From positions 1 to 18,246 of the IMG/VR virus record IMGVR_UViG_2609459834_000002: a stretch of DNA of 18,246 nucleotides; one strand, 5' to 3'. Below the pieces are notes generated by a model. It ran no database searches and was not told where the DNA came from. It was given only the letters and a program-made list of their open reading frames with translations. The position numbers were made by a program, and so were the translations under genes. Every line of letters begins with the position of its first letter. Position 1 is the first letter of the stretch. The stretch comes from a virus (taxonomy: Duplodnaviria > Heunggongvirae > Uroviricota > Caudoviricetes). Below, in pieces: positions 8,470 to 17,354 of the stretch.

Positions 8470-9288
8470 TCACCCCCTGAATCCTGCCGGGATCTGGCTG
8501 TAGTCCACGTTGTCGTAACTGGCTTTGAAGTACGGGTCCTCGCGTCTGGCTGCAGATACCGCAGGAACTTCCCAGGATTCTTCGAAATGACGATCCGGAC
8601 CAAAGAACGTGACAGCCTGTTTCACAAATTGTGTGCCGCTGTTACCCATCGCAGATACCCAGCCCGCGTAGCGTTTCACACCTTCCAGCATGGTTTCGGG
8701 GTTTACTCCCTCATTCAAACGGGCTTTCCAGGCTTTGAAGGCTGCAGATTTTGAATTGCCACCAGCACGTTTGGGATATGCCAGCCATGCCTGCTCAAAC
8801 TCCGGAGAGTATTCCGGTCGGTTTGAACGAACTCGCACGGACTCATCAACTGATGCACCAACAGCTATTGGTTCATTGACTGGTTCTTTGACTGGTTCAA
8901 AAGAGTGACTGGTTCTGGGTGAATCTCCTGCACTACCCCCTGGTGCAACTCCTGCACTACCTGGTGAATTTGCTGCACCAGATAGTGAATTATTTGCACT
9001 ACCCCCTAGTGAATCTCCTGCACCATCCAGATGAAGGAGATAGATATTACTTGAGTTACCTTTTTCACCTTTCCGGGTGACTTTTTTTACCAGCCCGGAC
9101 TCACAAAGGGCCGCAATATGATTCATCACAGAACGTTTGCTAATCTCGCACTGGTCAGCAATATGCTGATAGCTGGGCCAGCACTCACCCTGATCGCTGG
9201 CATTATCAGCCAGCTTGATCAGAACCAGTTTTCGCAATGGATTACCCACTCGAATTTTCATCGCTTTAACCATCAGCTCCATACTCAT
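8470..9288 (-). CDS. Phage replication initiation protein (N-terminal HTH domain, repeat linker, C-terminal domain)
   Basis: 272 aa. N-terminal HTH (PLRKLVLIKLADNASDQGECWPSYQHIADQCEISKRSVMNHIAALCESGLV), a Gly/Ser/Ala-rich linker encoded by tandem DNA repeats, and a basic C-terminal domain. Sits at the lambda O position after the cro/CII-like genes. Confidence 0.7.
   Translation of the reverse strand: MSMELMVKAMKIRVGNPLRKLVLIKLADNASDQGECWPSYQHIADQCEISKRSVMNHIAALCESGLVKKVTRKGEKGNSSNIYLLHLDGAGDSLGGSANNSLSGAANSPGSAGVAPGGSAGDSPRTSHSFEPVKEPVNEPIAVGASVDESVRVRSNRPEYSPEFEQAWLAYPKRAGGNSKSAAFKAWKARLNEGVNPETMLEGVKRYAGWVSAMGNSGTQFVKQAVTFFGPDRHFEESWEVPAVSAARREDPYFKASYDNVDYSQIPAGFRG
8877..9028. repeat. Iteron-like tandem repeat array inside the replication gene (candidate phage origin)
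   Basis: Five tandem 21-24-bp repeats at 8917-8940, 8941-8961, 8962-8982, 8983-9006 and 9007-9028, consensus tGGTGAATctcCTGCACTACCccc. Three copies of TGACTGGTTC at 8877, 8889 and 8907. A moderately AT-rich stretch follows at 9029-9090. Confidence 0.5.
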
Positions 9289-9509
9289 GCTGCACCTCCG
9301 AGATGCTTCATGTTTTTTCCGGAGCGAAAGGCTATAAGCGGCATACTGACGCGGTAATTACGGCCCAGCGGTTCACAAACCACCTTCTGACATTCACGGT
9401 CAACCAGGCTAACACGTAGAACATGCCCTGCAGGCGTGGTGTACCACTGACCGGGGCGAGGACAACGGAAAGTCTGATTGGTAAATCGTTTGAAAATATT
9501 CCGGATCAT
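9285..9509 (-). CDS. Hypothetical protein (74 aa), translationally coupled between Rha-like and replication genes
   Basis: ATG at 9509 overlaps the Rha stop (ATGA) and its stop overlaps the replication-gene ATG at 9288 (ATGA). No recognised domain. Confidence 0.5.
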   Translation of the reverse strand: MIRNIFKRFTNQTFRCPRPGQWYTTPAGHVLRVSLVDRECQKVVCEPLGRNYRVSMPLIAFRSGKNMKHLGGAA

Positions 9510-10063
9510 TTGCGCCCCCTTACCTCTGAAGAGTTCAGCGACGAATGAATAAGACGGGCAAGAAATGCCGCATCGTTAATTCGGTCATACAGACTTACAG
9601 CCAGAGGTGATTCAGCTTTTTCCAGCATGGGATAAAGCTGCTGCAACCAGACCTGATGAATTGATGAAATGTAGGAATAGAGAACGCTGGCGTTATGTGC
9701 AACGTCGCTCGGTACAGAGGGCTTTGAAAGCTGTTTCTCCATCTGGTTAAAGGCATTGATGTATGCCTCTTTGAACTGGGCAGCACGTTTCCCCGTGAAA
9801 CCCATAGCAAGAAACGCAAAGCCGTCGCGGGTTATTTGATAGCAAGGAAGTTTGCGAGTACCGCCGTTGGGCTGGCGTACCAAAATTGATGTCTCCGCAA
9901 AATTGCGGGCACAAAACTCTGGAGAACAATCCAAAATGCGGATCTTTTTCAGAACATCGTCATGACGTTTAGAGAAGAAGTCAGCAACAGCCAAAGAAGA
10001 TGTAACAGCCTGACCATCAACGATGGCAATTTCAGGTTGAGAGAGGGTTGGGAGAGTAGTCAT
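9506..10063 (-). CDS. Phage regulatory protein, Rha family
   Basis: Product from the internal ATG at 10063-10061 (MTTLPTLSQPEIAIVDGQAVTSSLAVADFFSKRHDDVLKKIRIL...YQITRDGFAFLAMGFTGKRAAQFKEAYINAF) matches the Rha N-terminal domain. The track ORF extends in frame to 10669; that extension is treated separately in findings. Confidence 0.75.
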   Translation of the reverse strand: MTTLPTLSQPEIAIVDGQAVTSSLAVADFFSKRHDDVLKKIRILDCSPEFCARNFAETSILVRQPNGGTRKLPCYQITRDGFAFLAMGFTGKRAAQFKEAYINAFNQMEKQLSKPSVPSDVAHNASVLYSYISSIHQVWLQQLYPMLEKAESPLAVSLYDRINDAAFLARLIHSSLNSSEVRGRK

Positions 10064-10665
10064 GGTGACAGCCCCGGTAGTCAGTTTTTTAGAAAACTCA
10101 CCACATGGGACGCCAATCACAGAGGTGGTGAGACGTACAGGGTTGGCGTTACCGGAGACTACCGAACCCGGCCCGACCGAAGTCGGCCCTGTACGCCCCA
10201 CCATAATTTGGGCGTAGCAATGCTCATGACACGAAAAAACCGCATGAGCGCGGTTATGCTCAGTAATCAATTTCAGGACGCCAATCCCGGCACCCGTTTT
10301 ATAAGGTGCCTGAACAGTGTAACGTCCCGGAATGGCAGAATCAATGTGCTGGTGGTCCTTCACACTCAACAAAATCACGCCTGAATTTCCACAAAGGACT
10401 AAAGCACTCATGCGGGTAGTCTTTGCGAAGATAGATAACGCGCTGTGTTTCTGGCTCCCAACGAATAACATGAACATAAAGTCCTCTTCCGTCACGAAAC
10501 CAGCGGTTAAGTTCCTGCACAACTCGCCCCCCACAGTCAGGTAAAGTTCTCTGTGGTTACTTACAGCCAGGTGATTTGGTAATCTGCATTCATGCCGTAA
10601 CAACAGGTGTTCAGCGACGCTGACCACCTGTTGTTGCGACAAACGGTTATTTGCCGTTAAACTGT

Positions 10666-11229
10666 TCATGCGTTAGTTTCTCCACAGACACAAAACGCCA
10701 CGACGCCCGGAGCTGCACACTCGCGGGCGTCACTCTTTTCTGGAGCGCAAAAGATTTTGTAGACCAGTGCTGCATGCTCCTGGAGCTTCGAAATTGACAG
10801 ATACAACTCATCATTAATTGCTGTCTGCTCGTGTGGCTCCACTACCCCATCTTCGATTGCCGAACGAATCTGCTTTGAGTAACTCCCGATCTGTTCGATG
10901 ACTTCCAGCAGGCGCTGGTTTATATCGGCGTTCTCTACTTCCTCAATTTCAGGAAGCGATACAAACACCCCACCAGCAGACTGTGCGACAGCATCCGCAA
11001 TGTAGTGAGTGCCAGCCGCGCGCTGTAAAATCATTGCCCATCCCAGCGGGAAAATCTGATCGCCATCTGCACGAAGGCGGTTGAATAAAGCGTTCTCTGT
11101 TACATCCAGCCACTCAGCAGCTTCAGCGTAACCCCCCGGCAACGCCGCGATAGTTTTTCTGACAGCTTTCACGTACCACTCAGGCTGTTTTTCTACTTTC
11201 CAGTGATGCTTACCCACGGTTAGCCTCAT
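10666..11229 (-). CDS. CII-like / YdaT-like regulatory protein (tentative)
   Basis: 187-codon ORF immediately downstream of the cro-like gene on the same strand, the CII position. No strong RBS at ATG 11229; an in-frame GTG at 11217 has GAGG upstream. Family assignment is by position and weak recollection. Confidence 0.45.
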   Translation of the reverse strand: MRLTVGKHHWKVEKQPEWYVKAVRKTIAALPGGYAEAAEWLDVTENALFNRLRADGDQIFPLGWAMILQRAAGTHYIADAVAQSAGGVFVSLPEIEEVENADINQRLLEVIEQIGSYSKQIRSAIEDGVVEPHEQTAINDELYLSISKLQEHAALVYKIFCAPEKSDARECAAPGVVAFCVCGETNA

Positions 11230-11551: not shown

Positions 11552-12226
11552 ATGAAAACAGTCCATGACATCCGGCGGTCTAACGCCAGAAAACTGAGAG
11601 ATGGTGTTGGCGGGAATTCTTCCTTTGCCACCATGATTGATCGCGAGCCAACCCAGACCAGCAGGTTTATGGGGGATGGTGCTACTAAAAATATCGGTGA
11701 CAGCATGGCACGGCACATCGAAAAATGTTTCGACCTGCCTGTCGGATGGCTTGATCAAGAACACCAGACAACAAACATCACAAAAAAACCTGATGTTTCA
11801 ATCACTAACAAACAAATAACGTTAGTCCCTGTCATATCATGGGTACAGGCCGGAGCATGGAAAGAAGTTGGCTATTCTGAGGTTGATTTGAGCACAGCAG
11901 AAACTTATCCCTGCCCTGTACCCTGTGGCGAAATGACTTATATCTTGCGGGTGATTGGTGATTCAATGATTGATGAGTACCGCCCGGGAGACATGATTTT
12001 TGTTGATCCCGAAGTCCCTGCCTGCCACGGTGACGACGTTATTGCATTGATGCACGATACAGGCGAAACCACCTTTAAGCGGTTGATAGAAGATGGAACA
12101 CAGCGTTATCTCAAAGCATTAAACCCAAACTGGCCTGAACCTTACATTAAGATCAACGGTAATTGCTCTATAATTGGCACAGTGATTTTCTCAGGAAAAC
12201 CAAGAAGATACAAAATAAAGGCCTAA
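11552..12226 (+). CDS. CI-like prophage repressor (HTH plus LexA-like S24 peptidase domain)
   Basis: 224 aa. C-terminal domain has the S24 autocleavage-fold motifs (VIGDSMIDEYRPGDMIFVDPE). Divergent from the cro-like gene and followed by a strong terminator. Confidence 0.85.
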   Translation: MKTVHDIRRSNARKLRDGVGGNSSFATMIDREPTQTSRFMGDGATKNIGDSMARHIEKCFDLPVGWLDQEHQTTNITKKPDVSITNKQITLVPVISWVQAGAWKEVGYSEVDLSTAETYPCPVPCGEMTYILRVIGDSMIDEYRPGDMIFVDPEVPACHGDDVIALMHDTGETTFKRLIEDGTQRYLKALNPNWPEPYIKINGNCSIIGTVIFSGKPRRYKIKA

Positions 12227-12239
12227 TCAATATTTATAA

Positions 12240-12260
12240 CCTGCTTCGGCAGGTTTTTTT
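12240..12260 (+). terminator. Rho-independent terminator after the repressor gene
   Basis: CCTGC-TTCG-GCAGG hairpin followed by T7 (12254-12260), 14 nt after the cI-like stop. Confidence 0.7.
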
Positions 12261-12264
12261 ATAC

Positions 12265-12297
12265 TTGACAATGTACCCTCGAGATACATAATGTATC
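12265..12297 (+). promoter_or_regulatory. pL-like promoter with overlapping operator (OL-like)
   Basis: -35 TTGACA at 12265-12270, 17-nt spacer, -10 ATAATG at 12288-12293. The spacer holds a 19-bp operator-like site ATGTACC-N5-GATACAT (12271-12289), overlapped by the perfect palindrome GATACAT-A-ATGTATC (12283-12297). Confidence 0.5.
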
Positions 12298-12575
12298 TAA
12301 AAGAAACATGTCACAGGCAAGATTAAACAAAATTTGGTTGTAACACGGCGTATGGCACATGCGTCGTTAGCGGTCTGGGGACGTTAAAGGGGACAATCCA
12401 CTCCTTGCTCGGGCAAACAAACCAGGTAGCCGGAATGTGCAAGTCAATGATGATGCTGATAAGACGCCTAACCAGCGTGGCGGTTCGGTTTGACACCTGG
12501 GAAGAGACCAGGGTGCAACGATGAGGGCATTTATGGAACCGCGACAAAGTGTGGTGCCGTAACTGGCTAAGTGCT

Positions 12576-12596
12576 CTCAGCGTTGTGGTGAATGCG
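12576..12596 (+). repeat. 21-bp direct repeat, copy 1 (CTCAGCGTTGTGGTGAATGCG), followed by a GC hairpin
   Basis: Differs from the copy at 13204-13224 by one base. Followed by hairpin GCGCA-GGCTGA-TGCGC at 12594-12609. Lies in the roughly 450-nt leader between the pL-like promoter and the first small ORF. Confidence 0.6.
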
Positions 12597-12739
12597 CAGG
12601 CTGATGCGCGAAAGACATTGCAGCTATTGCGGAAAAGAGCTGTTCGGCGGGGCAATTAAACGCCCGTATCTGGAGGTTAAAGAACAAAATGAAAGTCCAG
12701 ATTTTAAACAATAACTGTGAAGTCGTTTGGGCGTAAAAC

Positions 12740-12946
12740 ATGACCGCGCGTAGACCAAGGGAGGAAAAAGTGGGAATAGTTAGAAATCAAGCAGATATAT
12801 TGAAAATCAGCTCTGAATTGCTTGGAGTTTTGAAAAGTGAGCTCACCGCACATGGCATCGAGCCCACTGACGAAAATTTAAGTTGGGTTTTGTCGATTAT
12901 TCAACAATCACTCAAGCCCAGCCTCAGCAAACTTTTTATCGAGTAG
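12740..12946 (+). CDS. Hypothetical small protein (68 aa) at the N-gene position; possible N-like factor or moron product
   Basis: ATG at 12740 lies 3 nt after the stop of a 15-codon upstream ORF (12689-12736, MKVQILNNNCEVVWA, GGAGG at 12672-12676). An in-frame GTG at 12770 has a strong GGGAGG RBS. N-terminus MTARRPREEK is mildly Arg-rich. Sits in a visibly AT-rich island. Confidence 0.4.
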   Translation: MTARRPREEKVGIVRNQADILKISSELLGVLKSELTAHGIEPTDENLSWVLSIIQQSLKPSLSKLFIE

Positions 12947-13099
12947 TGCTTCGAACTTATCGTAAAGCTTGCTTATGTCGTCTATCGGGTTTTCTGACGT
13001 ACTGTAATTTTTATCTGATGTCATGGCAGCAGTCTGATATGCAGTGTGAGTCTTAACCGATAGTTGGAATAAATAAAGAATTTTTTCTTCTTTGGTCAT
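12908..13099 (-). CDS. Hypothetical small protein (63 aa), convergent with and overlapping the 12740-12946 ORF
   Basis: ATG at 13099-13097 with AAGGA RBS 7 nt upstream. Product MTKEEKILYLFQLSVKTHTAYQ...DKKFAEAGLE. Its 3' end overlaps the convergent ORF by 39 nt. No family recognised. Confidence 0.4.
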   Translation of the reverse strand: MTKEEKILYLFQLSVKTHTAYQTAAMTSDKNYSTSENPIDDISKLYDKFEALLDKKFAEAGLE

Positions 13100-13203
13100 G
13101 ACTATTTCCTTCTTGGCTATATGAAAACACCAAGATACCACCGAGCCTGAAGTGGTGAAAAGACAGGCACATAACAGCTAAGTATTTTCAACCAGAGAGA
13201 ATC

Positions 13204-13224
13204 CTTAGCGTTGTGGTGAATGCG
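13204..13224 (+). repeat. 21-bp direct repeat, copy 2 (CTTAGCGTTGTGGTGAATGCG), followed by a short GC hairpin
   Basis: Near-identical to 12576-12596 (20 of 21). Followed by TGCG-GCTCAG-CGCA at 13221-13234. Marks the right boundary of the AT-rich island. Confidence 0.6.
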
Positions 13225-13355
13225 GCTCAGCGCACGCGGGTTAAGGTTGAGGCTGACAGTCGACCTTCTGTGGATACCCACCCGCCTGGTGTGCAACCTT
13301 CGCCAGGCACCGGGAGGCACCCGGCACCACAACTTTATGCTGTGTGTAGTCCTAG

Positions 13356-13400
13356 CGGTACCAGCTTGTACCATTGCTTCCGGCTGGTACCGTCCTTTTT
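13356..13400 (+). terminator. Terminator-like hairpin (tL1-like candidate) upstream of rdgC
   Basis: Perfect 10-bp inverted repeat CGGTACCAGC (13356-13365) / GCTGGTACCG (13383-13392) with a 17-nt loop, followed by TCCTTTTT (13393-13400). The loop is long for a canonical intrinsic terminator. Confidence 0.4.
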
Positions 13401-13565
13401 ACAAAACAGAGAAGAGCATCACCGGACGACGGGCTCATAACCCAATCCACCCGGGCAAAAAGAAAGCGGTCTCTGCAAGCCGCCGACCAATGCAGGTGCC
13501 CTTCTCTGTTGTGTATGGAGAAACTAACTTTTTAGCGCCGGTGCAGAGGCGTTGAGGAACCGAGA

Positions 13566-14483
13566 ATGAACAATCCGTTTTTCAAAAATATGTTGGTGTA
13601 TCGCATTAGTCGCGATTTCACCATCAACCAGGAAGAGCTGGAACAGCAGCTTGAACTATTTCGCTTCACTCCATGCGGTAGCCAGGATATGGCAAAAACC
13701 GGTTGGGTATCACCACTTGGTCAGCTGTCAGATCGCTTGCATCACACTGTCAATAATCAAGTGTTGTTGGTTATTCGCCGGGAAGAAAAAATACTGCCAT
13801 CTCCTGTCATTGCTGAAGAACTGCGCAAGCGTGTGGCGCGTCTGGAATCCGATCAGGGGCGTCGCCTCAAAAAAACTGAGAAAGATTCGCTGCGTGATGA
13901 AGTGTTGCACTCCCTGCTTCCTCGGGCGTTCTCCAAAAACTCGACTGTTAGTTTGTGGATCAACGTCACAGACGGTCTGATCATGGTTGATACAGCCAGC
14001 GCTAAACGTGCCGAAGACTCACTGGCCCTGCTTCGTAAAACTCTCGGTTCTCTCCCGGTGGTACCGCTGACTATGGAAACGCCGATCGAACTAACTATTA
14101 CCGACTGGGTTCGTTCCGGTAGTGCCCCTGCTGGCTTTAGCCTGGGTGATGAAGCCGAACTGAAAGCTATTCTTGTAGATGGCGGTATTGGACGCTTTAA
14201 AAAACAGACTTTGGTCAGTGACGAAATTCATGTGCATCTGGAAGCTGGCAAAGTAGTTACAAAGCTGTCTATCGACTGGCAACAGCGCATTCAGTTCGTT
14301 CTTTGCGATGACGGCAGCATCAAACGCCTTAAGTTCTCTAATGAGATTACAGAACAAAACGACGATATCTACCGTGATGATGCGGCTCAGCGGTTCGACG
14401 CTGACTTTGTTCTAATGACCGGCGAGCTTATCTCTCTCATTAACGGATTAACAACCTCTCTCGGCGGCGAAGCCAAGCGATAA
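13566..14483 (+). CDS. rdgC: Recombination-associated protein RdgC (prophage-encoded homologue)
   Basis: 305 aa with GAGGA RBS 8 nt upstream. Matches recalled E. coli RdgC along its length ([123 protein letters not shown]). Confidence 0.9.
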
Positions 14484-17115: not shown

Positions 17116-17141
17116 GTTTCACACAGATAAAAAAAGAAAAA

Positions 17142-17157
17142 CCCGCCAGATGGCGGG
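17142..17157. terminator. Rho-independent terminator between convergent genes (strong for minus strand, weaker for plus)
   Basis: CCCGCC-AGAT-GGCGGG hairpin. The minus-strand RNA is followed by a U-rich run (plus-strand A-rich 17128-17141); the plus strand has only CTTT after the stem. Confidence 0.6.
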
Positions 17158-17180
17158 CTTTCAAAAAGCACCAGCTATGA

Positions 17181-17354
17181 TCATGCTGCCTTGCGACGAC
17201 GAAGCTTACCCTGCTGCTCTTTACCAGAGACAATAGCGTGAGTGAACGCGTTAGGAGCAGCCTTCATCAGAACTTCAACAGCAGCACCCATACCTGCGAA
17301 TGCTTTCATTGTGTCGAACTTAACCTGTGGCTTGGTTGCTTTTTGATCTTTCAT
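17181..17354 (-). CDS. Hypothetical small basic protein (57 aa), absent from the ORF track
   Basis: ATG at 17354-17352 with GGGAG RBS 8 nt upstream; stop at 17183-17181. Product MKDQKATKPQVKFDTMKAFAGMGAAVEVLMKAAPNAFTHAIVSGKEQQGKLRRRKAA. Terminator about 20 nt downstream. Confidence 0.5.
   Translation of the reverse strand: MKDQKATKPQVKFDTMKAFAGMGAAVEVLMKAAPNAFTHAIVSGKEQQGKLRRRKAA

What the first reader, a model, noticed from the sequence alone, without database searches (positions are those of the whole stretch)
12576..13224. AT-rich island bounded by near-identical 21-bp direct repeats, at the N/rexAB-equivalent position
Two copies of CT(C/T)AGCGTTGTGGTGAATGCG (12576-12596, 13204-13224), each followed by a short GC hairpin, bracket about 610 bp that is visibly AT-richer than its GC-rich surroundings. 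The island holds a 15-codon uORF, a 68-codon ORF and a convergent overlapping 63-codon ORF. It sits between the pL-like promoter and a terminator-like hairpin upstream of rdgC, a slot where lambdoid phages carry N/nut or exclusion morons. The repeats could be att-like cores of a small inserted cassette, duplicated nut/put-like RNA elements, or recombination scars.
Basis: partly seen in the sequence, partly recalled or inferred. Interest (0 to 1): 0.75.

Follow-up and report, generated by a model that had tools for sequence, protein, structure and literature searches.

The report
Accessory cassette between duplicated sRNA starts
The two 21-bp repeats are the conserved starts of two copies (one broken, one intact) of a known multi-copy prophage small-RNA gene, and the AT-rich stretch between them is an ordinary swappable accessory-gene cassette in a hypervariable slot beside the phage's early-left promoter, not an inserted mobile element.

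Summary
In detail: CT(C/T)AGCGTTGTGGTGAATGCG occurs at 12576-12596 and 13204-13224, nowhere else in the window, and flanks 607 bp at 41% GC. The repeat is not an att core. It is the 5' strand of the 9-bp closing helix (GUUGUGGUG/CACCACAAC), plus the junction, of an STnc100/PasD-family structured prophage sRNA. Compensatory changes support this helix. Copy 2 starts an intact gene: core 13207-13337, terminator 13355-13400, Rfam RF02076 43.2 bits (E 1.4e-6, just under the gathering score). Copy 1 starts a 95-nt 5' fragment of a different allele (mEp460 type), broken at 12669. Between them lie a conserved linker with a 15-codon uORF, two small convergent genes (58 and 63 aa, conserved in Klebsiella, Atlantibacter and Kluyvera prophages, function unknown) and the sRNA's conserved upstream region. 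Among 126 related loci, 117 have one copy and 9 have two. The same cassette occurs without the left repeat in at least 31 loci. An alternative cassette sits between the same flanks, and at least 7 other cargos abut the sRNA gene. The island is therefore a mosaic recombination product in a hypervariable slot next to pL. The sRNA's function and the cargo's function remain unknown. Interest is modest.

The parts
11552..12226 (+). cI-like LexA/S24 repressor (YmfK-like), followed by its terminator at 12238-12255
   Evidence: Pfam PF00717 E 1.5e-26. Terminator scan. 94.7% identical to e14 ymfK and about 98% to Ayreon cI.
12265..12292 (+). pL-like sigma-70 promoter, TTGACA-16-CATAAT
   Evidence: 11/12 match to consensus. 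Annotated as a promoter at the homologous place in phage Ayreon.
12293..12575 (+). Untranslated pL leader. The part 12326-12575 is a mEp460/Ayreon-type module. Its 3' hairpin (about 12513-12581) is homologous to the spacer hairpins of P1-type arrays.
   Evidence: 99% identical to mEp460 and about 98% to Ayreon. About 82% identical to the P1-like plasmid sequence between tRNA-Ile and dnaB/ban. Fold, flanks.
12576..12596 (+). Repeat copy 1. It holds the 5' strand of the closing helix (GTTGTGGTG, 12582-12590) and the junction AATGCG.
12576..12669 (+). Truncated 5' fragment of a mEp460-type (type B) STnc100-family RNA gene. It has the 5' arm, P1 and two hairpins, but no CCGG hairpin and no 3' arm.
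   Evidence: Collinear with the intact mEp460 RNA up to ...AAACGCCCGT, then diverges. Model R1 gives 54.8 bits, against 125 bits for the intact type B. The break point is identical in all 9 two-copy loci.
12670..12757 (+). Left conserved linker ('Lend'). It holds SD GGAGG and the 15-codon uORF at 12689-12736 (MKVQILNNNCEVVWA*).
   Evidence: Shared by cassette A and cassette B loci. In SKA5 the same ATG opens a 91-aa ORF.
12770..12946 (+). ORF58 (phrog_15476; the mechanical ORF is 68 codons from 12740). A small conserved protein predicted as a two-helix hairpin.
   Evidence: PHROG E 7e-50. Homologues of 58-59 aa at 66-83% identity, including Kluyvera. Present with a GTG start and SD in L133. 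AlphaFold pLDDT 71.
12908..13099 (-). ORF63 (phrog_2605). A small conserved protein, antisense to pL, predicted as a two-helix hairpin.
   Evidence: PHROG E 1.4e-33. Homologues at 64-84% identity in Atlantibacter and Klebsiella prophages in the same slot and orientation. AlphaFold pLDDT 78.
13134..13203 (+). Right conserved linker ('Rend'), the upstream region of the sRNA gene. It has a -10-like CATAAC at 13170-13175. The Rfam STnc100 alignment starts at 13180.
   Evidence: Present upstream of type A RNA genes whatever cargo precedes them. Rfam alignment. The promoter role is inferred.
13204..13224 (+). Repeat copy 2, the 5' arm (13210-13218) and junction of the intact RNA
13207..13337 (+). 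Intact STnc100-family RNA core: a multibranch fold closed by GUUGUGGUG (13210-13218) and CACCACAAC (13325-13333)
   Evidence: Rfam RF02076 at 13180-13402, 43.2 bits, E 1.4e-6. MFE -83 kcal/mol, z -3.0. Model R1 80.2 bits. Covariation.
13355..13400 (+). Intrinsic terminator: a 12-bp GC-rich stem (13355-13366 with 13382-13393) followed by a U-run
   Evidence: Fold. Conserved in Ayreon, mEp460, SfII, SKA5 and e14. Annotated as a terminator in SfV.
13566..14483 (+). rdgC, the first large gene of the left operon
   Evidence: PF04381 E 2.2e-113.

Best explanation
The repeats are the homologous 5' ends of two alleles of one gene, an STnc100/PasD-family structured prophage sRNA. This RNA sits at the end of the pL leader in e14/SfV/mEp460-like lambdoid phages. 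The 21-mer supplies the 5' strand of the RNA's 9-bp closing helix and the junction into stem P1. That is why it is the best-conserved stretch among otherwise divergent alleles. Copy 2 begins an intact gene: upstream region, about 130-nt multibranch core, intrinsic terminator. Copy 1 begins a 95-nt stump of a mEp460-type allele, broken at 12669/12670.

The 'island' is the sequence that recombination placed between stump and intact gene. It consists of a conserved linker with a uORF, a two-gene accessory cassette (ORF58 on the pL strand and ORF63 antisense to it), and the sRNA's own upstream region. The slot just upstream of the sRNA gene is hypervariable. The conserved flanks (Lend, Rend plus the 5' arm, and the terminator) serve as homology anchors for cassette exchange between phages.

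Shown: the anatomy, the RNA fold with covariation, single-copy relatives, alternative cargos, and cassettes lacking the left repeat.

Inferred: after induction, pL transcribes leader, stump, uORF/ORF58, sRNA core and terminator in that order. In lysogens the sRNA is made from its own promoter in Rend, as STnc100 copies are in O157 and LT2 lysogens. ORF63 is a lysogen-expressed moron of unknown function. The stump is a non-functional relic that now serves as 5' UTR.
For: The repeat is real and non-random. Rfam STnc100 aligns full length (1-206) at 13180-13402, at 43.2 bits and E 1.4e-6. Three alleles with unrelated interiors (window, mEp460, Ayreon) fold into the same closed multibranch core plus terminator. 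RNAalifold on 8 diverse units gives a 9-bp closing helix with 3 doubly compensated pairs and 1 of 72 cells broken. On 21 distinct units, 94% of cells are paired and 8 pairs change on both sides, against 1.7 +/- 0.9 in shuffles (0/500); slid controls reach at most 66%.

Of 126 loci with the 18-mer, 117 have one copy and 9 have two, at spacing 628 or 655. Ayreon, mEp460, cdtI and the Stx2c phages have the leader, one copy and their own RNA body, with no island. Copy 1 is collinear with the intact mEp460 RNA to 12667/12669 and then breaks, at the same point in all two-copy loci. The cassette Lend-cargo-Rend occurs without a left repeat in at least 31 loci, 7 of them with cI-pL directly adjacent (SfII; L133). 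An alternative cargo B sits between the same flanks. CX21 carries tandem cassettes. At least 7 further cargos abut Rend.

ORF58 and ORF63 are conserved across genera in the same slot. The STnc100 family is multi-copy, prophage-borne and expressed in uninduced cultures, with one copy confirmed by Northern blot (PMC5331693; PMC10794520; bioRxiv 10.64898/2026.05.13.724894).
Against: No transcript data exist for this window. The sRNA promoter in Rend is only a weak -10-like match, and the promoter scan did not call it. The Rfam score is below the gathering cut-off (43.2 against 47).

The left junction at 12669/12670 shows no obvious microhomology, so how it formed is unknown. The stump is kept at 92-100% identity in 9 loci and also serves as the inter-cassette linker in CX21-type arrays. 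That could mean it is selected for some function. In the equilibrium fold of the whole transcript, the copy-1 arm, not copy 2, pairs with the single 3' arm. A functional interplay is therefore not excluded.

The functions of the sRNA and of both cargo proteins are unknown. The covariation alignment was fitted to the model, which favours the structure.
Confidence: 0.75

Rival explanations
1. The duplication is functional. Two 5' arms compete for the single 3' arm (13325-13333). pL transcripts carry both arms and fold differently from transcripts started at the sRNA's own promoter, which carry copy 2 only. This would tune sRNA maturation or read-through of the 13355-13400 terminator into rdgC, acting as a cis-regulatory, put- or attenuator-like switch.
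For: There is one 3' arm but two perfect 5' arms. The MFE of the 841-nt transcript pairs copy 1, not copy 2, with the 3' arm. The stump is conserved in 9 loci and used as a linker in tandem arrays. The element lies directly upstream of a strong terminator that gates the left operon, and these phages show no N homologue in the slot.
Against: 117 of 126 loci manage with one copy. The stump's break point is identical everywhere, which suggests one accidental event that later spread. Co-transcriptional folding should favour the nearby copy-2 arm over one 620 nt upstream. STnc100 RNAs accumulate as discrete terminated species, so the core does not abolish termination. There is no similarity to HK022 put. 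P1-type arrays have the cores without terminators.
Confidence: 0.1
2. An in-situ tandem duplication of the sRNA gene's 5' region occurred within one phage lineage, by unequal crossing-over or slippage. Divergence and cargo gain between the copies followed.
For: The arrangement is a direct repeat. Similarity extends upstream of both copies (TAAC.GCTAAGT). Tandem cassette arrays exist.
Against: The body after copy 1 is a different allele (type B) from that after copy 2 (type A). Each is 97-99% identical to the body found in separate single-copy phages, mEp460 and SfII. This fits a joining of two parents better than duplication followed by divergence.
Confidence: 0.07
3. The island is a small mobile cassette inserted by site-specific recombination. 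The 21-mers are att-like cores, or a target duplication.
For: Near-identical direct repeats flank an AT-rich, compositionally foreign segment. Relatives with one copy and no island exist.
Against: The cassette occurs without the left repeat in at least 31 loci, including other genera. Homology breakpoints do not coincide with the inner edges of the repeats. The first 73 bp 'inside' the island are the continuation of an RNA gene. The island encodes no recombinase. The single-copy 'empty' relatives carry a different RNA body after the repeat, so none is a precise empty site. The 21-mer is explained by RNA structure with compensatory changes.
Confidence: 0.03
4. The repeat marks the start of protein-coding genes. 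The ATG inside GTGAATGCG opens a 111-aa YmfH-like ORF (13220-13555) at copy 2 and a 40-aa ORF (12592-12714) at copy 1.
For: Both ORFs exist. Homologues are annotated as YmfH in K-12 and SfII_35 in SfII. The 40-aa ORF has a CSYCGKEL motif resembling a ClpX zinc finger.
Against: Neither ORF has a Pfam or PHROG match. The 111-aa ORF runs through a strong intrinsic terminator. Alleles keep the helix arms by compensatory change while their interiors are unrelated and do not preserve a reading frame. The SD spacing is poor. The CX21 homologue is annotated as frameshifted.
Confidence: 0.03

Closest known systems
STnc100 (Rfam RF02076) and PasD prophage sRNAs of Salmonella and E. coli
   Same: Full-length alignment to the covariance model. 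Shared features include the UGGUGAAU 5' arm, the CACCGGGAGGCACCCGGCACCA 3' module, a terminal intrinsic terminator, multiple copies, and a lambdoid-prophage location.
   Different: The score is below Rfam's gathering cut-off (43.2 against 47). The interior hairpins differ. Here the gene sits at the end of the pL leader, whereas the literature places PasD downstream of Q and other STnc100 copies downstream of stx2. The truncated second copy and the role as anchor of a variable slot have not been described in the papers read.
Morons and hypervariable accessory slots of lambdoid phages (established knowledge: lambda rexAB between cI and pL, sieB, bor, lom)
   Same: An AT-rich, compositionally distinct small gene module near the immunity region. 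One gene is antisense to the early operon. Different cargos sit between conserved flanks in related phages.
   Different: No promoter or terminator pair of its own was detected. The cargo proteins have no known function and match no defence model. The slot's right anchor is an sRNA gene.
HK022 put RNAs (putL/putR), cis-acting antiterminator RNAs
   Same: A structured RNA encoded just downstream of pL. In SKA5 the 5' arm starts a few nt after the predicted transcription start. It lies upstream of terminators in a phage with no N gene in the slot.
   Different: There is no sequence or model similarity. Put is a two-stem RNA of about 70 nt, whereas this is a multibranch core of about 130 nt. No second copy lies downstream of pR. 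The family's RNAs accumulate as terminated sRNAs.
Lambda nutL / N antitermination
   Same: The position between pL and the first genes of the left operon.
   Different: No boxA lies on the + strand of the leader, and boxA-like matches in the window are at chance level. There is no boxB-type hairpin and no N-like gene.
Integron cassettes with attC sites, and att-flanked islets
   Same: Gene cassettes separated by structured imperfect palindromes. Tandem cassette arrays occur in CX21-type prophages.
   Different: The arm order (GTTG...CAAC) does not fit RYYYAAC...GTTRRRY. No integrase is associated with the cassettes. Cassettes exist without the left element. The element is an expressed RNA gene.

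Membership tests
STnc100 (Rfam RF02076) | Covariance-model score at or above the curated gathering score (47 bits) | tested here: not met
   43.2 bits, E 1.4e-6, full-length alignment 1-206 at 13180-13402. The near-identical SKA5 copy scores 45.2, SfII 39.5 and e14 29.2. I treat it as a divergent relative, not as a curated member.
STnc100 (Rfam RF02076) | Closing helix UGGUG/CACCA enclosing hairpins, with the CCGGGAGGCACCCGG hairpin next to the 3' arm, then an intrinsic terminator | tested here: met
   Alignment, fold, covariation.
STnc100 (Rfam RF02076) | Expressed as a discrete sRNA of about 200 nt | not testable with these tools
   Shown only for other copies, in EDL933 (Northern blot, RNA-seq) and LT2.
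Site-specific insertion (att-flanked cassette) | Element always bounded by two core copies; precise empty site with one core | tested here: not met
   At least 31 loci carry the cassette without the left copy. Single-copy relatives have a different RNA body after the repeat, so none is a precise empty site.
Site-specific insertion (att-flanked cassette) | Associated recombinase | tested here: not met
   The island ORFs are 15, 58 and 63 aa helical proteins with no Pfam domain.
Lambda-type nut site | boxA (YGCTCTTWA) followed by a boxB hairpin, with an N-like ARM protein | tested here: not met
   No + strand boxA between 12293 and 13566 at up to 1 mismatch; the window count is at chance. No N-like gene was found.
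HK022-type put RNA | Sequence or structure similarity to putL/putR; paired sites after pL and pR | tested here: not met
   Model R1 finds nothing in the HK022 pL-pR region L003. The sequences are unrelated by eye. The only hits in the window are the two copies in the pL leader.
HK022-type put RNA | Confers terminator read-through in cis | not testable with these tools
   Needs reporter or in vitro transcription assays.
Moron / accessory cassette | Variable presence and alternative cargo at a fixed position between conserved flanks in related phages | tested here: met
   Cargo A, cargo B and at least 7 other cargos between pL and Rend.
Moron / accessory cassette | Own promoter and terminator; expression from the repressed prophage | tested here: inconclusive
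   The consensus scan found no promoter or terminator for ORF63. The orientation antisense to pL is conserved across genera.

The most novel reading that the evidence does not exclude
The STnc100-like core may be a modular, stand-alone structured RNA unit rather than a classical base-pairing sRNA. It is the fixed right-hand anchor of a hypervariable accessory-gene slot at pL in e14/SfV/mEp460-like phages. The same unit occurs 5-6 times in tandem, interleaved with tRNA genes and tRNA-like hairpins, in P1, P7, D6 and P1-like plasmids. The window's leader is also homologous to P1 sequence next to tRNA-Ile. If so, the truncated copies used as inter-cassette linkers, and the competition between two 5' arms and one 3' arm, could reflect an RNA-level function. 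Possibilities are processing punctuation, insulation of untranslated early transcripts from Rho or nucleases, or a decoy for a host factor. In that case they would not be mere scars.
Probability: 0.15. Interest if true: 0.6.

Novelty: new member of a known kind. Interest (0 to 1): 0.33.

Why it matters
The result converts an apparent 'mini-island with att-like repeats' into an ordinary case of phage mosaicism. It gives an exact parts list for a poorly annotated region that about half of complete E. coli genomes carry in some form. In those genomes the region is usually annotated as hypothetical proteins (YmfH, SfII_35, Upl) lying over what is really a structured RNA gene and its terminator.

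It also shows that an sRNA gene, through its structurally constrained 5' arm and its terminator, provides the conserved homology that lets diverse small accessory genes be swapped next to pL. Finally, it flags two small conserved proteins (ORF58 and ORF63), and the unannotated P1 arrays of the same RNA, as candidates for experiment.

Tried and rejected
- HK022 put: I fetched the pL-putL-nun region and read the cryo-EM paper. There is no similarity, and the model has no hit there.
- King et al. 2011 on new put RNAs could not be retrieved. A literature search for HK639 gave nothing relevant. mEp021 antitermination (Gp17/nut) concerns a different phage group.
- nut: a boxA scan was at chance level. 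A boxA-like TGCTCTTA just upstream of several P1 units turned out to be the 3' strand of spacer hairpins, so I dropped it.
- Hammerhead-like CUGAUG...GAAA in the type B allele is absent from the other alleles, and Rfam reported no ribozyme.
- Integron attC: the arm order is incompatible.
- Cargo function: Pfam, PHROGs and PADLOC gave only unknown-function families. AlphaFold gave two-helix hairpins, so I did not run fold searches, which would be uninformative.
- My first regex-based harvest of units was too noisy. I replaced it with a covariance model.
- Rfam found no STnc100 in the Klebsiella and Atlantibacter loci. Inspection and model R1 show a diverged unit there, at 13 bits and E 0.04. 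This is weak.
Full report
**Observation**

The window holds CTCAGCGTTGTGGTGAATGCG at 12576-12596 and CTTAGCGTTGTGGTGAATGCG at 13204-13224. The shared 18-mer has no other match in the window at up to 3 mismatches. None of 200 shuffles gave two matches. The 607 bp between the copies are 41.4% GC. The leader is 50.2%, the sequence after copy 2 is 61.8% and the whole window is 49.6%.

So does the context. An S24 repressor lies at 11552-12226, followed by its terminator. A TTGACA-16-CATAAT promoter lies at 12265-12292. A strong terminator hairpin lies at 13355-13400, and RdgC lies at 13566-14483. The window is an SfV/mEp460/e14-like lambdoid prophage of Escherichia/Shigella.

**What the repeat is**

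Rfam's STnc100 model (RF02076) aligns over its full length to 13180-13402, at 43.2 bits and E 1.4e-6 against a gathering score of 47. In that alignment GTGGTGAAT is the 5' strand of the long-range closing helix, and CACCAC at 13325 onward is its partner.

I folded three alleles whose interiors are unrelated: window copy 2, mEp460 and Ayreon. All three give the same architecture:
- a closing helix GCGUUGUGGUG/CACCACAAC.GC;
- a P1 hairpin straight after AAU;
- variable middle hairpins;
- a CCGG...CCGG hairpin abutting the 3' arm;
- a 12-13-bp terminator about 20 nt further on.

RNAalifold on eight diverse units recovers the 9-bp closing helix. Three of its pairs are doubly compensated (GC>AU, UA>CG, GC>AU) and one of 72 cells is broken. 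I built a covariance model from these units and used it to collect 21 distinct units. On these, 94% of cells pair. Eight pairs change on both sides, against 1.7 +/- 0.9 in shuffles (0/500), and slid controls fall to 28-66%. One caveat applies: that alignment was fitted to the model.

The 21-mer is therefore the structurally constrained 5' arm plus junction of an RNA gene. The window has two 5' arms (12582, 13210) but only one 3' arm (13325).

**Copy 1 is a stump**

In mEp460 the same leader and the same 21-mer continue into a complete RNA of a different allele (type B) and the shared terminator. The window follows mEp460 at 99% identity up to 12667. It breaks after ...AAACGCCCGT and continues with ATCTGGAGGTTAAAG.... 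The CCGG hairpin and the 3' arm are missing. The model scores the stump at 54.8 bits, against 125 bits for the intact type B.

**Comparative anatomy**

I scanned viral contigs for the exact 18-mer and added the loci I had fetched. This gave 126 loci, of which 117 have one copy and 9 have two, at spacing 628 or 655 bp. After the motif come:
- type A bodies (84 loci, as in window copy 2 and SfII);
- type B bodies (34 loci, as in mEp460);
- the stump followed by the linker (9 loci, always broken at the same base);
- a few rarer alleles.

I mapped window modules onto all loci. The results are:
- leader, type B RNA and terminator with no island in 30 loci;
- the cassette [Lend-cargo A or B-Rend], type A RNA and terminator without any left repeat in at least 31 loci, 7 of them with cI-pL directly adjacent;
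- two-copy versions with either cargo;
- tandem cassettes in CX21-type prophages (Lend-A-Rend-repeat-stump-Lend-B-Rend-repeat-RNA).

At least seven further cargos, mostly minus-strand genes of unknown function, abut the same Rend sequence. They include e14's ymfI/ymfJ.

Homology breakpoints with relatives fall at 12597 (Ayreon), 12667/12669 (mEp460), 12687 (SfII), about 12757 (cargo A against B) and 13106/13134 (e14, SKA5). They are not symmetric about the repeats. A match to the region is present in 2,981 of 5,426 complete E. coli genomes. None has the window's exact leader-stump-Lend junction.

**The cargo**

ORF63 (minus strand, phrog_2605) and ORF58 (plus strand, phrog_15476; true start GTG at 12770 with a strong SD) are real genes. 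Homologues at 64-84% identity occur in Atlantibacter, Klebsiella and Kluyvera prophages. For ORF63 the genomic context was checked. It lies in the same slot between the repressor and RdgC/YfdP/DUF2303 genes, in the same orientation. In L133 the convergent pair, a Rend-like segment, a diverged RNA unit, a terminator and RdgC are all present, with no left repeat.

Both proteins are predicted as two-helix hairpins, with pLDDT 71 and 78. They match no Pfam or PADLOC model. The 15-codon uORF is the conserved N-terminus of a 91-aa ORF in cassette B. It is another mosaic joint.

**Explanation**

The island is a recombination product in a hypervariable slot next to pL. An mEp460-type parent supplied pL, the leader and the first 95 nt of its RNA gene. 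An SfII/CX21-type parent supplied the linker, cargo A, the sRNA upstream region and an intact type A gene. The left joint is illegitimate, with no evident microhomology. The right joint can lie anywhere in the shared terminator region. The direct repeat is a by-product of both parents carrying the same RNA gene. Its conservation reflects RNA structure, not recombinase recognition.

For function I infer the following, by analogy with STnc100 copies. Those are expressed in uninduced O157 and LT2 cultures, and one is confirmed by Northern blot. The intact gene should yield a terminated sRNA of about 200 nt from a promoter in Rend (-10-like CATAAC at 13170-13175; the Rfam model starts at 13180). 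It should also be made as the end of pL transcripts after induction. The stump then acts only as 5' UTR. ORF63 would be a lysogen-expressed moron. None of this is shown for this locus.

**Rivals**

- A functional two-arm switch is not excluded. The equilibrium fold pairs copy 1 with the 3' arm, and the stump is conserved. But most relatives have one arm, and the break is a single shared event.
- In-situ duplication is unlikely, because the two bodies are different alleles that each match separate phages.
- An att-flanked cassette is contradicted by cassettes that lack the left copy, by the breakpoints, and by the absence of a recombinase.
- The YmfH-like ORFs that start at the ATG inside the repeat lack family support, run through a terminator, and are not preserved across alleles.
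- nut and put membership both fail.

**Known and new**

STnc100 and PasD are described prophage sRNAs of unknown function. Mosaic accessory slots are textbook lambdoid biology. What the papers I read do not describe is the sRNA gene acting as the conserved anchor of the slot, the truncated copies, and the tandem arrays of the same core among tRNA genes in P1-family elements.

Noticed in passing
L129 2000-2892 and 4425-4543; L128 4-822 (P1-like plasmids NZ_CP067430, NZ_CP157096); also phages P1, P7, D6, RCS47: Five to six STnc100-like cores lie in tandem, interleaved with tRNA-Asn/Thr/Ser/Ile genes and tRNA-like spacer hairpins. There are no terminators between them, and the closing helices show compensatory changes. 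The region is annotated only as Upl, Plp or hypothetical proteins.
   Followed up: partly
window 12326-12575 (hairpin about 12513-12581): The pL leader is about 82% identical to the P1-like plasmid sequence between tRNA-Ile and dnaB/ban. Its 3' hairpin (GAUGAGGGCAU...AGUGCUCUCAGC) is homologous to the P1 inter-unit spacer hairpins. An internal hairpin differs in stem sequence between the two versions (AAGGGG..CUCCUU against AGGGG..CCCCU). This may be a second structured RNA module.
   Followed up: partly
window 10121-10208 (-) and 10233-10309 (-): A C4 antisense RNA (82 bits) and isrK (60 bits) lie upstream of, or within the 5' part of, an Ash + Rha antirepressor ORF (9509-10669, minus strand). 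This is a P1 immI-like or Gifsy isrK-anrP-like module embedded in the pR operon of a lambdoid prophage.
   Followed up: no
window 8919-9023: Three to four 39-nt iteron-like direct repeats (GTGAATCTCCTGCACTACCCCCT...) lie inside the replication-initiator gene 8473-9288 (minus strand; HTH_36/DnaD_N). This is probably the origin of replication.
   Followed up: no
window 13400-13418 / 13497-13515; 13510-13528 and 10672-10690: A 19-nt inverted repeat (89%) begins right after the sRNA terminator and encloses 78 nt upstream of rdgC. Its distal arm overlaps the motif TGGAGAAACTAAC, which recurs (inverted) just before the ATG at 10669 and before many genes in related phages. It looks like a shared RBS or module-boundary linker.
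   Followed up: no
window 12592-12714; L004 2310-2515: The 40-aa ORF that starts at the ATG inside repeat copy 1 contains CSYCGKEL. This resembles the first CxxC of the small ClpX-type zinc-finger ORF (PF06689, E 1.3e-10 after correcting a poly-A frameshift) that occupies the same position upstream of the linker in CX21-type prophages. It is either a relic or a coincidence.
   Followed up: partly
window 12707-12715: AACAATAAC inside the uORF can pair with the copy-1 5' arm at 7 of 9 positions. The covariance model aligned the stump as if it were full length for this reason. The sequence is not conserved in SKA5, so the match is probably chance.
   Followed up: partly
window 17215-17223 (+): This is the only perfect boxA-consensus match (TGCTCTTTA) in the window. 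It lies next to a terminator-like hairpin that gave a weak rnk-leader Rfam match at 17130-17201 (minus strand). It was not examined.
   Followed up: no
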